Source: Promethearchaeota archaeon (GTDB lineage: Archaea > Asgardarchaeota > Lokiarchaeia > Sigyniarchaeales > SOKP01). Taken from it: a stretch of 64,000 bases of DNA. The notes beneath the pieces are model-generated. The model had not been told where the DNA came from and searched no databases. It was given only the letters and a program-made list of their open reading frames with translations. Made by a program: the position numbers and the translations under genes. The DNA is taken from contig JAHPZA010000009.1 of NCBI GenBank assembly GCA_019058445.1, positions 384,001-448,000 of the forward strand, written 5' to 3'. Shown piece by piece: positions 43,971-49,300 of this stretch; the first letter of the stretch is position 1; every line of letters begins with the position of its first letter.

Positions 43971-44184
43971 AATAAATCTAAATGATTTATTGAAAGTATT
44001 AAACCAATGTAATATAGTGATGTCTGGAGCGTGTATTCGAAAAAGATATTTACAAAATATCTAGAAAATATCTGAATATATTTTCTACAGAACATATATC
44101 TTTTTTAAAAAACTAAATTTAAATTAATTAAAGATATAATTTATTTTAATAAAATAAGCAAATAAGAAGGGTTGCTGCCTAGGC

Positions 44185-45141: not shown

Positions 45142-45260
45142 TTTTTGATTATGGTTTTAAATTAGAACACACTTCTTTATTAAATTTGTTTTATTAATTA
45201 AACTCAAATTGTTCAAAAAATTGGATTTAAAAATTAAAAAATTACAAGAGGTGGGAGTAA

Positions 45261-46190
45261 ATAGTCTTAACGGTTGCTTTCAATGATATACACGCTCAGT
45301 GAGACACTAGAGGCTATTTAATGGGATTTTCGATAAAAGAGATTACGTTCAAACAAAAATATCTTTTATACTTAACAGAACCAGAGCTGGCAGGTCCGTG
45401 GTTTAGTTTTAAATTAAAGGGAAAAAGGATAGGAACAATACCAGTTGTACTTAAAAATATTGAACCTACCCCGATATATCAGTTAGTAAATAGCAGAAAA
45501 GGTACAAAAATAGATCGTATTACATTAGATTTCGATATTAGGGAATATCTCAAAAAATTGATACGTGAAAATAAATTAAACCCCTTAAAATTTAAAGATG
45601 AAGAACATCTAATCCGATTATACATTGATGTTTTCTTGCGTAGAGGTCAAGCACCATACATGAATACATATTTTACCTTAAAAAATAATTCTGATTTTGA
45701 TTTAATTGACTTTTCTATGATTTTCATATTTGACTTTGATATCAACGGTCTAGAAGGTTTTGACAATGATTTATCTGGATATGATGAAGAGAATAACATA
45801 ATATATCAATATGATAAAACCGGTATTCATGCGGGTTTTTCTACAATTTCTAAACCAACTGGCTTTGAAACAAGCTTAACAAAAGATTTCCATTTAGGAA
45901 AGGGGAGATTAAATTTATCAAATACATTAAATGAAAGTGAAGGTGAAATTCTGTCAGCACTCCAAATTGAATTTAAAACTCTCGAACCAGAACATTCCTT
46001 TCAAACAGCCTTAACGATATCTGGGGGGTATAGTAGAGAAGAATTATTCGAAAATATCATTGAGGGACGGAGAGATGCTATGAAATATCTAAATCAAGTT
46101 TATAGATCTATCAGATCAGAACAGAGGAATAAACAAGAAGTAGCATTTATAAAATTGAACCTCCAAGAAGCTGAAGGGTGTAAAGATTGA
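45261..46190 (+). CDS. Candidate selenoprotein of unknown function (309 aa, Sec14); ORF track gives only 45321-46190
   Basis: GAGGTG SD (45248-53), ATA 45261, (M)VLTVAFNDIHAQ-TGA(45300-02)-DTRGYL-MGFSIKE... in frame; SECIS-like element right after stop. The 45321-46190 part is a solid ORF regardless. Confidence 0.65.
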
Positions 46191-46272
46191 TAAATCCATT
46201 TTAATGATTCAAATAAAAAAGCCGTTAATGGAAAGTTATTTGAGGAGAGCCTTGTGTTGGTTAGGATTTATT
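46189..46272 (+). promoter_or_regulatory. Eukaryote-type SECIS-like element
   Basis: Helix I TAAATCC(46191-97)/GGATTTA(46264-70); ATGA 46204-07; helix II TTCAAATAA/TTATTTGAG; unpaired AAAA 46217-20; GA 46245-46; fits ATGA-N11-AA-N24-GA. Confidence 0.7.
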
Positions 46273-46336
46273 ATAAAAACTATTATATGAGTATAGTAAT
46301 AAAAAATAAAATTAAGAAATTAAAAAAATATTTAAA

Positions 46337-49300
46337 TTATTCTTCTGAATTTTGTTTTGCTTTTAAGGTAAGATAGGTATCTTCAAGGATATTCAGATAT
46401 TCAATTAAAACATTATCGCTTTTAGATTTTTGGTCATATCCATTCTTAATAATTTTCAAAAGGTACTTCGGGAATATGAGATCCAAGTTAAAATCTGAAA
46501 GGAGAGCATAATATTCTGTACTGTTTTTATCTTGAAGGACGGAGATCAAATTCGCTTGCCATAGCTGTTTTAATACTAAGTTAATATCTGTAACACCTTT
46601 CTTTTTAAGCTTCTCTAGTTCGTTTCTAGTGACAATCGCGGTTCTTAATAATCGGAGTGTTTCATAAACTTGGGGATTACCTATAGTCTCAATTACTTTA
46701 ATATTATCTTCTTTAGATGGATGATAAGTTTGGAAGAATTTACTGATCTCATTAGAATATGCCTTTGCAAGCTGTGGTGGTAAACCATGAGCTTCAGGCT
46801 TTTTTAGTAATTCTATTGGAGGAACTCTGATCATATAAATATCATTGATTAAAAAGACCAATTCTGAAGGGAGTCCTTTAATCGAACTTTCTTTGACAAT
46901 CTCCATTTTTACGAGCTCTGCCAGAATATTTGCTAAATCAAAAAACCCTTCTTTGTATTTATCTTTAAGCCAGACCATTAGTTCTGATTTGGAAATAACG
47001 CCTTCTTCTCTAAGCCGATTTATAATCATCCGTTTGATTTCATCTTGATAAATATATGCAATTCGTCCTTCGGCGGTTAGGTTTGGGAACATAGCCAATC
47101 TCTGAAAGAGCGAAGAAATAATATGTAAATAAGAATCATCCTCTAAATTCTGTAAGATAATTCGTAAAATATCTGCCATTGCATCCTCATAAAGATCAGG
47201 ATCATCATCTAAATTTAACACTAAGACAAGGTAATAACCTTTTTCAGCTCCAGTATAGTATGATAAGATATTTGAATTGCCAGCCATTAAATTTACTGCC
47301 CCTGATTCTCCTGTATATTCATGAGTCCCATAGATTTGCATTAATGTCTTTTTAGTAATTTCAATTCCTTCTGGGTATTGAACTACAATTTCAGTACCAA
47401 CTCTTTCATTCCATCTCATAAGAATTAATCCCTTTGGTATAAGATCACTGCTTCTTTTTGTAGCAATGAGTTTTTGCTTTACTTTTAGTACTTCTTCAAC
47501 TTTTTGGATTTTTGTCCCCAGCATAGCTTCCAAAGAAACTCCAATTGTCTGCCATTTATCTTTTACTAAATGGGCCATATACATCTCTTTCGAAGGATAT
47601 AATAGCGAGGTATTGATATCGTCATTATTTTTAATTAATTTTTTCATCGATCTAAGTTTTTTAACAAATTCCGGGATCTTCATCAATTGAATATATTTAT
47701 AGGTCCCAAGACTACCTACGATTGCACCAATAGCCGCAATGAGCAATAGAAGATAAAAAATGGGTATGCTTACTACTCCAGGAATTACTTCGATCTCTTC
47801 CATTTCGATTACAATTGTAATATCAGTGTCTTCTGAAGTGTAATTCGCTTTTGAGATTTTAATAGTTCCAGTAATGGTGTTTGAGGTAAAGAACGCTTCA
47901 TAATCATCAGTTTCAAATTCCACTTCATACACTCCATCCTCAACCTCTTCAAACTCAAGCTCATCATCACCAATCTCTAAAATAACCGTTGCGTCCTTTA
48001 ATGGAATATCTCCCTTGGTTGGATCGGTTAATTCTATTGAAAGTGTAATTGTTTCTCCTTTCACTACACTGGTTTGTTTATCTTCAAACATATCTCCAAG
48101 ATCATACTCGATCTCTCTCTCATTAATAGTTAGAAATATGATTGCCTGTTTCGACTCGTAATTCTGTTTATCTAAAGTAACCCATACCGTATATCTTCCA
48201 ACTGCCATTAATTCAGTATTAATATCTAAAACATATTCACTGTCAGAATTAACATATAAATCTCCAGTTCCATATAAAACTGATTGACCTGCTCTTATTT
48301 CTGTCATTGAATAACTTTGTGTTTCCAAATCGATTATATTGGTAAGATATTGTTCATCAATATAGGAAAAAGTAAAATTTAATTCATCTTGGACATATAT
48401 AACTGGATATAAATCAACATTAATTGATGAATCGCTAATTAATGTCAATCGTTCTTGCACCTCTATCTCCAAATCTTTTGAAATATCCGAGATATAATGT
48501 TCTTTAATTACCTCAAACCGAATGGTATAATCACCGGCATTAATTAAGGAAGTATTTATAGTTTGCTGATAAAATCCTAAATTCTCATAATATTGAACGG
48601 TTCCGGATATATCAGGGGCTTCTCTTATAACATAAGTAACTAATCCAGTAGTTTCATAGAAAACAGTTCTTGAATAACTTATCCTAAAAGAAAGTGTAAA
48701 ATTTACGAGTTGGTTCGTTTCTATAGAAGCTGAATATATTAAATTCTTGTAAATCTTTGCTAGCGAAAATGTCCCTTCTCCTTGAAGAGTATCTGAAATG
48801 CTATACGTTTGCCCTCCAATTGTGATATTCATTGCTAACTCTGATGGAAAAAAATAGTGACTTCCATTGTTTATTTTACTAATCAATAATTCTGTACCTT
48901 GATCGTCAAAATTACTGGTGAAAACAATATTGAATTCTCCTCCATTAGGCAAATCTTGCTTGGATATAGTTGTACTAATATTTTCTAAATGTTGATTCCA
49001 GTAAAATCCTTGATAATATTCAACTGTAATATTGACATCAAACATGATATCTGAAATATTAATAATATCAAAAAAGAATTTATCATCAATTGGATATATC
49101 GTTATATTGTCAATAGTTAAGCCTGCATTTCCATTACCAAGGTATTCTAATGTAAAATTATAACCCTCATTAGTAGTAATTTTTGATATTGCTATAGTTG
49201 GATTAGATATAGGACTCCAATCTGAAGTATTAAAGCAATTATAAATTTCAAAAGTTATGTTTTTAATTATCCAGCCATTAACACATGATAAAATGTTTAT

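What the first reader, a model, noticed from the sequence alone, without database searches (positions are those of the whole stretch)
46189..46272. Anatomy of the SECIS-like element: kink-turn core with an extra side hairpin
Seen: helix I (GA)TAAATCC/GGATTTA(TT); core ATGA...GA; 9-bp helix II TTCAAATAA/TTATTTGAG; A-rich apical entry; small apical mini-stem CCG-TTAA-TGG as in type II SECIS. The 3' internal loop holds an extra AGCC/GGTT hairpin not typical of eukaryotic SECIS. It begins at the stop codon and sits ~900 nt from the UGA, i.e. long-range eukaryote/archaea-style rather than bacterial-style recoding.
Basis: partly seen in the sequence, partly recalled or inferred. Interest (0 to 1): 0.75.

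Follow-up and report, generated by a model that had tools for sequence, protein, structure and literature searches.

The report
Three-armed Asgard SECIS, new selenoprotein gene
The RNA fold right after this gene's stop codon is a genuine selenocysteine-insertion signal of the eukaryote-like kind used by Asgard archaea; it serves an undescribed selenoprotein, and its odd extra side hairpin turns out to be a conserved third arm of such signals that the papers I could read do not describe.

Summary
Window 46188-46273 (+) folds as described: helix I, AUGA, 9-bp helix II, an AAAAA entry, a mini-stem, GA, and a 3' side hairpin.

On its own the fold is not significant (z = -1.6), and a loose core pattern matches 605 places in this AT-rich genome. 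The comparative evidence decides it.
- **Conservation:** the element abuts the stop codon of the orthologous gene in 115 of 130 genomes searched in the same family. It was found in 0 of 19 searched in sister families, whose homologues carry Cys.
- **Covariation:** all four helices covary (92% paired against 27-49% for slid controls).
- **The gene:** it really runs 45261-46190. An invariant in-frame UGA (45300-45302) aligns with the second Cys of a CxxC motif in the Cys homologues. The 19 codons before the annotated ATG vary in a codon-like way. Databases hold only the truncated 289-aa product.
- **The genome:** it encodes SepSecS, SelB, a PSTK-like protein and a Sec-containing SelD.

The side hairpin also occurs in this genome's SelD, VhuU and two small selenoprotein SECIS. 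It occurs in SelD SECIS of six further Asgard families, mostly with an NGCRA-type loop. The texts I read do not mention it. Its topology matches a k-junction. No function was tested.

The parts
45248..45253 (+). Shine-Dalgarno-like GAGGUG, 7 nt before the inferred AUA start
   Evidence: Sequence. Relatives have GGAGGU about 9 nt before the conserved AUA.
45261..46190 (+). Selenoprotein gene, 309 codons plus stop. Inferred non-AUG (AUA) start directly after an in-frame TAA. Annotated in databases only from the ATG at 45321 (289 aa).
   Evidence: Codon-position entropy in the 19 codons before the ATG is 14.4/8.2/26.9, against 28/27/25 in the 60 nt further upstream.
45300..45302 (+). In-frame UGA, codon 14: the selenocysteine codon
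   Evidence: TGA in 35 of 35 distinct orthologous sequences. It aligns with the second Cys of CxxC in Cys homologues and with U of CxxU in genus g4.
46179..46181 (+). Codon of the invariant C-terminal Cys307, a candidate resolving Cys
   Evidence: Invariant column C307 in the alignment of 32 homologues.
46188..46197 (+). SECIS helix I, 5' strand (UGAUAAAUCC); includes the UGA stop and the following UAA
   Evidence: Fold. 5 of 7 pairs show changes on both sides in relatives.
46198..46207 (+). 5' internal loop AUUUUA plus the core AUGA (46204-46207)
   Evidence: U-N-AUGA is invariant in 39 orthologues.
46208..46216 (+). Helix II, 5' strand (UUCAAAUAA)
   Evidence: 99% of cells paired; AA/UU changes to GG/CC and A-U to U-A.
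46217..46235 (+). Apical part: AAAAG bulge, mini-stem CC/GG (46222-23 with 46230-31), loop GUUAAU, 3' bulge AAAG
   Evidence: The A-run and the closing AG match the published lokiSECIS loop description (PMC4989117).
46236..46246 (+). Helix II, 3' strand (UUAUUUGAG) followed by the core GA (46245-46246)
   Evidence: G is nearly invariant and A is invariant.
46248..46262 (+). Third helix (3' side hairpin): AGCC, loop UUGUGUU, GGUU
   Evidence: All 4 pairs show changes on both sides in orthologues. An equivalent hairpin occurs in SelD, VhuU and two small selenoprotein SECIS of this genome and in SelD SECIS of other Asgard families.
46264..46273 (+). Helix I, 3' strand (GGAUUUAUUA)
62907..62998 (+). 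Decayed duplicate of the gene's 3' end plus SECIS. AUGA is broken to AUAGA, helix II is broken, and no ORF lies upstream.
   Evidence: R1 hit of 31.6 bits; sequence; 79% identity to 46120-46345.

Best explanation
This is a functional SECIS element of the eukaryote-like type used by Asgard (Lokiarchaeia-type) archaea. It lies in the 3' UTR of a previously unrecognised selenoprotein gene (45261-46190).

Inferred mechanism:
- The mRNA folds into a three-armed structure. Helix I closes it.
- The AUGA/GA core forms tandem sheared G.A pairs, a kink-turn, at the base of the 9-bp helix II.
- Helix II carries the A-rich apical motif and a mini-stem.
- A third helix with a conserved GC-containing loop sits on the 3' strand between the core and helix I.
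- This RNA recruits the Sec-specific elongation factor (archaeal SelB/EFSec) carrying Sec-tRNA, either directly or through an unknown adaptor.
- The ribosome then reads the UGA at codon 14, about 890 nt upstream, as selenocysteine.
- The gene's own UGA stop lies inside helix I, too close to be recoded.

Shown here: the structure by covariation; strict linkage to the UGA-containing form of the gene; Sec/Cys homology; Sec machinery genes in the genome; and the generality of the third helix.

Inferred, not shown: kink-turn geometry, factor binding, actual Sec insertion, and the AUA start.
For: **Structure.** Across 39 orthologous elements 92.1% of cells are paired, against 27-49% when partners are slid. 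13 of 21 pairs show compensatory changes, and 0 of 500 shuffles reach the observed values on four of five measures. U-N-AUGA and the 3' GA are (nearly) invariant although unpaired.

**Linkage to the gene.**
- Model R1 finds the element in 115 of 130 genomes searched in family f1, always abutting the 3' end of the orthologous gene.
- It finds it in 0 of 19 genomes searched in families f2-f4.
- The 10 f1 genomes without the gene also lack the element.
- There is no R1 hit in the 9 loci of Cys homologues.

**The UGA is a Sec codon.**
- TGA is invariant in 35 of 35 distinct sequences.
- The extension before the ATG has coding-type periodicity (14.4/8.2/26.9, against 28/27/25 upstream).
- The alignment puts ...ICITU... 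and ...ATU... against ...ICINC... (CxxC).

**Sec system in the genome.** SepSecS 478 bits, SelB 242 bits, SelD with an in-frame TGA, a PSTK-like protein at 149 bits, and a weak candidate tRNA-Sec between SepSecS and SelB.

**Same architecture elsewhere.**
- It follows SelD, VhuU and two small TGA-containing ORFs in this genome.
- In the SelD SECIS of 21 relatives the side hairpin is 96% paired, with 4 of 5 pairs compensatory.

**Published model.** The element fits the published lokiSECIS and type II Asgard model: AUGA, 9-bp stem, AAAAA, closing AG, GA.
Against: - No experiment, RNA-seq or proteomic data are at hand; no RNA run holds the locus.
- The single-sequence fold is not significant, and Rfam has no matching family.
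- There is no canonical start codon between the TAA at 45258 and the UGA. Initiation at AUA is inferred from the SD spacing and conservation only, and some relatives have other codons at that position.
- tRNA-Sec is not securely identified: 28 bits against a gathering score of 47.
- The PSTK match is below the curated cut-off.
- G000's own side-hairpin loop (UUGUGUU) departs from the GCG/GCA consensus.
Confidence: 0.9

Rival explanations
1. The element is a generic 3' end structure, such as a transcript-stabilising or termination hairpin between two convergent genes, with no role in recoding. The upstream UGA is simply a stop codon in the 5' UTR of a protein that starts at the ATG at 45321.
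For: It lies in a 146-nt spacer between convergent genes. Gene callers start the protein at 45321. There is no canonical start codon upstream of the UGA. The fold z-score is only -1.6.
Against: - The unpaired AUGA, GA and A-run are conserved, as in published lokiSECIS.
- The element is not found in the loci of the nine Cys homologues examined; the two Sec-containing orthologues of family f4 also lack an R1 match.
- The extension before the ATG evolves like coding sequence, and its UGA aligns with Cys.
- The same architecture follows SelD and VhuU, which are known selenoprotein genes.
Confidence: 0.04
2. The SECIS is real, but the side hairpin is a passive spacer or local stabiliser of the large internal loop. 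It would have no specific recognition role, and its conserved loop would reflect shared descent of all these SECIS copies.
For: - Stem length (3-7 bp), loop size (3-9 nt) and linker lengths vary.
- G000's own loop (UUGUGUU) and genus g4 (GCC) depart from the consensus.
- Eukaryotic SECIS work without such an arm (established knowledge).
- Published models did not need it to find the elements.
Against: - It is kept with compensatory changes in three sets of SECIS: this gene, SelD type A and SelD type B.
- It is seen in SelD SECIS of families with only 36-44% SelD identity.
- The loop GC dinucleotide is invariant in two SelD alignments.
- Such retention of an unpaired loop sequence is unusual for a mere spacer.
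Confidence: 0.3
3. It is an L7Ae-binding kink-turn RNA of another class, such as a C/D-box or H/ACA guide RNA or an L7Ae autoregulatory site, that happens to lie after this gene.
For: AUGA...GA can form a k-turn, and archaeal L7Ae binds many k-turns (established knowledge).
Against: - There is no C/D (RUGAUGA/CUGA) pair and no ACA box in the required positions.
- There is no Rfam hit in 46100-46400 at E up to 10.
- It is strictly linked to a UGA-containing ORF.
Confidence: 0.02

Closest known systems
lokiSECIS of PrxL, VhuU and HdrA-VhuD genes (Mariotti et al. 2016, PMC4989117)
   Same: AUGA directly before a 9-bp stem. The apical region starts with about five A and ends in AG. GA follows the stem. 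It lies in the 3' UTR abutting the stop codon and acts on distant UGA codons.
   Different: The 11-nt loop is replaced by a 19-20-nt apical part with a 2-3-bp mini-stem (type II). The host gene belongs to none of the described families. The text of that paper describes neither helix I nor the third helix.
SPS/SelD lokiSECIS and the type II eSECIS-like model of Asgard archaea (Mariotti 2016; Huang et al. 2024, PMC11227280)
   Same: GA_[G/A]A core, upper stem of 7-15 bp, an A-rich bulge of 4-12 nt, a mini-stem of 2-8 bp and an apical loop of 2-6 nt. All model criteria are met.
   Different: The SelD elements of this family have a shorter (6-bp) upper stem. The published model covers only core, upper stem and apex. 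Huang et al. report no conserved nucleotides in the internal loop.
Eukaryotic type II SECIS (Rfam RF00031 and relatives)
   Same: AUGA / unpaired A's / GA, a mini-stem, 3' UTR location and long-range action.
   Different: Helix II is shorter. A third helix lies in the 3' internal loop. No Rfam match. No SBP2 homologue is known in Asgard archaea (PMC4989117, PMC11227280).
k-junction of the TPP riboswitch (Wang et al. 2014, PMC4005666)
   Same: Topology. [quoted passage not shown]
   Different: Here single-stranded linkers of 1-6 nt flank the third helix and the 5' loop is longer. The three-dimensional fold is untested. The function is unrelated.
Euryarchaeal SECIS (Methanococcus/Methanopyrus; GAA_A bulge)
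   Same: 3' UTR location. The VhuD versions carry AUGA...GAC/AAC and an extra stem.
   Different: No GAA_A bulge and no GC-only upper stem here.

Membership tests
Asgard eSECIS-like element / lokiSECIS, type II | Core 5'-(A/G)UGA ... (G/A)A-3' flanking the upper stem | tested here: met
   AUGA 46204-07 and GA 46245-46. AUGA is invariant and GA (nearly) invariant in 39 orthologues; one has AA.
Asgard eSECIS-like element / lokiSECIS, type II | Upper stem of 7-15 bp with at most 2 mismatches (9 bp in lokiSECIS) | tested here: met
   9 bp including a closing U.G. 99% paired, with 3 pairs showing compensatory changes.
Asgard eSECIS-like element / lokiSECIS, type II | Unpaired A-run at the start of the apical part; G, mostly preceded by A, at its end | tested here: met
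   AAAAG ... AAAG; conserved columns; criterion from PMC4989117.
Asgard eSECIS-like element / lokiSECIS, type II | Mini-stem of 2-8 bp, bulge of 4-12 nt, apical loop of 2-6 nt | tested here: met
   CC/GG, bulge AAAAG, loop GUUAAU. Covariation is thin: only one pair is informative.
Asgard eSECIS-like element / lokiSECIS, type II | Lies in the 3' UTR of a gene with an in-frame UGA that aligns with Cys in homologues | tested here: met
Asgard eSECIS-like element / lokiSECIS, type II | Genome encodes the Sec machinery | tested here: inconclusive
   SepSecS, SelB and SelD(Sec) are above their cut-offs. PSTK-like is below its cut-off. tRNA-Sec is only a 28-bit candidate.
Asgard eSECIS-like element / lokiSECIS, type II | Directs Sec insertion at UGA | not testable with these tools
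   Needs a reporter, 75Se labelling or mass spectrometry.
Eukaryotic SECIS (Rfam SECIS families) | Match to the curated covariance model | tested here: not met
   No Rfam hit over the element at gathering score or at E up to 10.
Eukaryotic SECIS (Rfam SECIS families) | Bound by SBP2 | not testable with these tools
   The literature reports no SBP2 homologue in Asgard archaea.
Euryarchaeal SECIS | GAA_A asymmetric bulge between a GC-rich lower stem and a 3-bp GC upper stem | tested here: not met
   The sequence and fold show no such bulge or GC stems.
Bacterial SECIS | Hairpin within the ORF immediately 3' of the Sec UGA | tested here: not met
   The element starts 886 nt after the UGA.
k-junction (elaborated k-turn) | Third helix inserted in the non-bulged strand between the NC helix (after tandem G.A) and the C helix | tested here: met
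   Secondary-structure topology supported by covariation; definition from PMC4005666.
k-junction (elaborated k-turn) | k-turn hydrogen bonding, with the third helix coaxial with the C helix | not testable with these tools
   Needs a solved structure or probing.
C/D-box or H/ACA guide RNA | C and D boxes, or an ACA box 14-16 nt from a pseudouridylation pocket | tested here: not met
   No such boxes in 46188-46290; no Rfam hit.

The most novel reading that the evidence does not exclude
Asgard SECIS elements are in general three-way, k-junction-like RNAs. The third helix, with its conserved NGCRA-type loop, would be the specific docking site for the still unknown archaeal SECIS-binding factor (the functional counterpart of SBP2) or for aSelB itself. 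This arm would have been lost on the way to the two-helix eukaryotic SECIS. The element studied here also reveals a twelfth archaeal selenoprotein family: a stand-alone beta-supersandwich protein with Sec at codon 14, a C-terminal Cys and a non-AUG start.
Probability: 0.35. Interest if true: 0.85.

Novelty: new variant of a known kind. Interest (0 to 1): 0.72.

Why it matters
[quoted passage not shown] A conserved, covarying third arm with a near-fixed loop gives a concrete handle for it: a bait for pull-downs, a mutational target, and a better search model.

It also changes the picture of the archaea-to-eukaryote SECIS transition, from 'a shorter eukaryotic SECIS' to 'a three-way junction that was later simplified'.

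In practice, adding helix I and the third arm to a model makes SECIS searches specific in AT-rich genomes. The bare core pattern gives 605 hits in this genome, against one strong hit for the full model.

Such searches can uncover selenoproteins that homology-based surveys miss. This family is present in most genomes of its family-level clade, yet databases hold it only as a truncated hypothetical protein.

Tried and rejected
1. **C-terminal ...CKD-U reading.** I considered that the TGA at 46188, followed by TAA, is itself a Sec codon. Rejected: most orthologues end in TAA at that place.
2. **aragorn 'tRNA-SeC' at C1:27020-27126.** Rejected as evidence. It reads better as tRNA-Ser(UGA) with a canonical 37/38 intron.
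3. **Whole-genome tRNA-Sec search with Rfam.** It gave nothing. A local scan gave a 28-bit candidate between SepSecS and SelB with an odd architecture, which I did not resolve.
4. **Loose core descriptor.** It gave 605 positions, so it is useless alone. Adding a 3' hairpin with a GC/GUG-type loop left 11, of which 5 follow TGA-containing ORFs. One other, at C6:1062367, lies inside a coding ORF and was dropped.
5. **Rfam over the window and the locus.** No SECIS family match.
6. **RNA evidence.** No RNA holder is listed for the locus.
7. **Pfam and NCBIfam on the full-length protein and a Cys homologue.** No family.
8. **Sec-containing relatives of family f4 (L058, L063).** There is no R1 match and no Loki-type element within 150 nt. 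A different conserved hairpin follows the stop codon; I did not pursue it.
In shifted form it exists in the closest relative, whose D-box-like CUGA is lost. No complement of 9 nt or more was found in 20 of the 27 sequences compared; the six other relatives with one have it at varying places. This is not convincing.
10. **Figures and supplements of the SECIS papers.** I could not inspect them, so 'not described' rests on the main texts only.

Full report
**What is there.** On the + strand the 289-aa ORF 45321-46190 ends in TGA followed by TAA. RNAfold pairs the following parts:
- UGAUAAAUCC (46188-46197) with GGAUUUAUUA (46264-46273).
- UUCAAAUAA (46208-46216) with UUAUUUGAG (46236-46244).
- CC with GG in the apex.
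- AGCC (46248-51) with GGUU (46259-62).

AUGA (46204-07) sits directly 5' of helix II and GA (46245-46) directly 3' of it. The apex opens with AAAA(G) and closes with AAAG.

**Chance.** Thermodynamics alone say little: z = -1.64 on the + strand and -1.67 on the - strand. A loose core descriptor matches 605 positions in the genome. Rfam has no match. The case therefore rests on comparison with relatives.

**The organism uses selenocysteine.** The window is G000:C9:384001-448000 of a 4.6-Mb, 31% G+C genome that is 92.6% complete.
- SepSecS: 478 bits.
- SelB: 242 bits.
- SelD with one in-frame TGA: 189 bits.
- A PSTK-like protein: 149 bits, below the cut-off.
- tRNA-Sec is not secure. The whole-genome Rfam scan was empty. 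aragorn's 'SeC' call is more likely tRNA-Ser(UGA) with an intron. A 28-bit candidate with a CUUCAAA anticodon loop lies between SepSecS and SelB.

**The gene is a selenoprotein gene.** A protein search of 151 genomes of the same order found the gene in 121 of 131 genomes of family f1 and, at 24-30% identity, in sister families.
- In 30 close and 9 more distant f1 orthologues an in-frame TGA lies 7 codons before the annotated ATG. The sequence before it reads as (I)VLKVxFN(D/E)I(L/F)A(T)-U-Nxx-GYL-MGF.
- TGA is invariant in 35 distinct sequences. Summed column entropy over the 19 codons of this extension is 14.4/8.2/26.9 for codon positions 1/2/3. The first 20 codons after the ATG give 12.3/7.0/25.2. 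The 60 nt further upstream give 28.1/27.4/25.1.
- In family f2 the homologous residues are ...ICINCQEKGY..., a CxxC motif. Genus g4 has ...ICITU.... The UGA therefore aligns with Cys.
- A Cys 3-5 residues from the C-terminus is invariant (C307).
- In G000 a TAA directly precedes an AUA (45261) that lies 7 nt after GAGGUG. No ATG, GTG or TTG lies between it and the UGA. A non-AUG start is inferred, and this is the weakest link.
- Public protein sets hold only the 289-aa product, without a name. In a profile search of 1.84 billion representatives, the Sec forms all begin at profile position 21, while the Cys forms (316-322 aa) are full length. Only 18 clusters reach E <= 1e-30.
- Neither Pfam nor NCBIfam recognises the protein.
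- An AlphaFold model (pLDDT 90.9) is a beta-supersandwich followed by helices. It is most like the N-terminal domains of GH94 phosphorylases, GH116 and bacterial glucoamylase (TM about 0.5-0.6). Its function is unknown.
- The published Asgard selenoproteome has seven families, and a 2026 review counts eleven for all archaea. None resembles this one.

**The element is conserved and covaries.** The 39 orthologous 3' regions align with an invariant U-N-AUGA, helix II and GA. For the four-helix structure:
- 92.1% of cells pair, against 27-49% when the 3' partners are slid by 1-3 columns.
- 13 of 21 pairs show changes on both sides. No shuffle of 500 reaches the observed value for four of five measures.
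- Helix II changes AA/UU to GG/CC in one lineage and A-U to U-A in another.
- Helix I changes in 5 of 7 pairs.
- The side hairpin changes in all 4 pairs.

Covariance model R1 gives these results:
- One strong hit in G000 (81 bits). The runner-up (31.6 bits, window 62907-62998) is a 79%-identical decayed duplicate with AUGA broken to AUAGA.
- Hits in 115 of 130 f1 genomes searched, each abutting the gene's stop codon. No hit in 19 genomes of f2-f4.
- The ten f1 genomes without the gene also lack the element.
- No hit in the nine Cys-homologue loci.

The motifs and pairings are conserved. The bare core is common by chance, but the whole element is not.

**The side hairpin is a general third arm.**
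- *In G000.* The SECIS after SelD reads AUGA...GA-GAAUU-CCAAC-UGCGC-GUUGG-CAUCA. The SECIS after VhuU, whose TGA stop is the UGA of AUGA, and those after two small U-x4-C ORFs all show helix I, AUGA, helix II, GA, a short linker, a GC-rich hairpin, then helix I.
- *SelD in 21 f1 relatives.* The arm is 96% paired, and 4 of 5 pairs are compensatory. The whole structure is 95.5% paired, against 26-50% when slid.
- *A second SelD SECIS type.* Nine relatives have the classic 9-bp stem and 11-nt loop, and they have the arm too.
- *Loops.* They centre on GC: UGCGC, CGCAA, CGCGA, GCG, GCA. The GC is invariant in both SelD alignments.
- *Other Asgard families.* SelD 3' UTRs from six further families (36-44% SelD identity) show the same layout. 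Pentaloops such as UGCGA or CGCAA are seen in f9, f21 and f10. Related GC-containing loops occur in f15 and f18, and more divergent ones in f2. For these I inspected sequences by eye and ran no covariation test.
- *Literature.* The main texts of Mariotti 2016, Huang 2024, Sun 2021 and the 2026 review describe core, upper stem and apex. Huang et al. state that the internal loop shows no conserved nucleotides. None mentions a hairpin or junction there. I could not see their figures or supplements.
- *Topology.* A third helix inserted in the non-bulged strand of a k-turn is the definition of a k-junction. Here linkers flank the arm, and the three-dimensional fold is untested.

**Mechanism (inferred).** The AUGA/GA core would form the tandem sheared G.A pairs of a kink-turn at the foot of helix II. 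The A-run and the closing AG match the lokiSECIS determinants. The third arm adds a sequence-specific loop. This RNA would bring SelB carrying Sec-tRNA to ribosomes decoding UGA-14, directly or through an unknown adaptor, since no SBP2 homologue is known in Asgard archaea. The gene's own UGA stop lies inside helix I. That fits the published idea that SECIS-proximal stops cannot be recoded. The product would have Sec14, plus Cys11 in some lineages, and a flexible C-terminal Cys307. This suggests a selenenylsulfide redox couple, which is speculative.

**Verdict.** This is a real SECIS of the known Asgard kind. It serves an undescribed selenoprotein family, and its 'odd' hairpin exposes an apparently undescribed, conserved third arm of Asgard SECIS elements. 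I tested that claim here and it holds.

Noticed in passing
window 62907-62998 (+): Decayed duplicate of the selenoprotein gene's last ~70 nt plus its SECIS, 79% identical. AUGA is broken by a 1-nt insertion, helix II is broken, and no ORF lies upstream. It sits in the spacer between two giant paralogous surface-protein genes, so the duplication that made those paralogues carried the neighbouring SECIS along.
   Followed up: partly
G000:C10:78.3-79.7 kb (-); L077 425-790 and 1403-1783: Two small TGA-containing ORFs (121 and 126 aa including the Sec residue; motif U-x4-C) flank a Cys paralogue (L077 911-1255). Each is followed by a classic 9-bp/11-nt lokiSECIS with a 3' side hairpin. Neither has a significant Pfam or NCBIfam match; there is only a faint Fe-S_biosyn hit. 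They may be a further unlisted Asgard selenoprotein family.
   Followed up: partly
G000:C3; L076 3625-3777 (+): In a VhuU-like small selenoprotein the TGA stop codon is itself the UGA of the SECIS AUGA core, so helix I of that SECIS lies in coding sequence.
   Followed up: no
G000:C6:~1059750-1059918 (-); L130 9750-9918: Candidate tRNA-Sec between SepSecS and SelB. The central part scores 28 bits to RF01852 and has a CUUCAAA anticodon loop. Around it, GGCCCUUGA ... UCGAGGGCC-G-CCA looks like a 9-bp acceptor stem with an encoded CCA. The architecture is unusual (introns or rearranged halves?) and unresolved.
   Followed up: partly
L058 and L063 (family f4 relatives), first ~40 nt after the stop codon: Sec-containing (CxxU) orthologues in GC-richer genomes lack the Loki-type element. 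They share a different conserved hairpin instead: GUG-(3 nt)-(A/C)CCAAG, loop U(A/U)GCC, CUUGG(U/G)-(2 nt)-CAC. It may be another SECIS form.
   Followed up: no
window 44012-44079 (+) against 45288-45297: A 10-nt stretch upstream of the GTPase gene is complementary to the mRNA just 5' of the Sec codon. The closest relative has a 12-nt complement at the homologous place, but to a stretch shifted 10 nt 5', and its D-box-like CUGA is lost. No complement of 9 nt or more was found in 20 of the 27 sequences compared; the other six relatives with one have it at varying distances.
   Followed up: partly
window 45261: The selenoprotein gene seems to start at AUA (AUU, AUC or an upstream GUG in some relatives), 7-9 nt after a strong SD. 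This non-canonical start, together with the UGA, explains why gene callers truncate the protein.
   Followed up: partly
G000:C6:1062.5-1063.9 kb; L078 512-814 (+) and 1028-1915 (-): Between SepSecS and SelB lie a 100-aa basic Cys-rich protein and a 295-aa zinc-ribbon plus coiled-coil protein. Huang et al. 2024 mention an Asgard-specific hypothetical protein linked to Sec genes, so these are candidates for a SECIS-binding factor.
   Followed up: no
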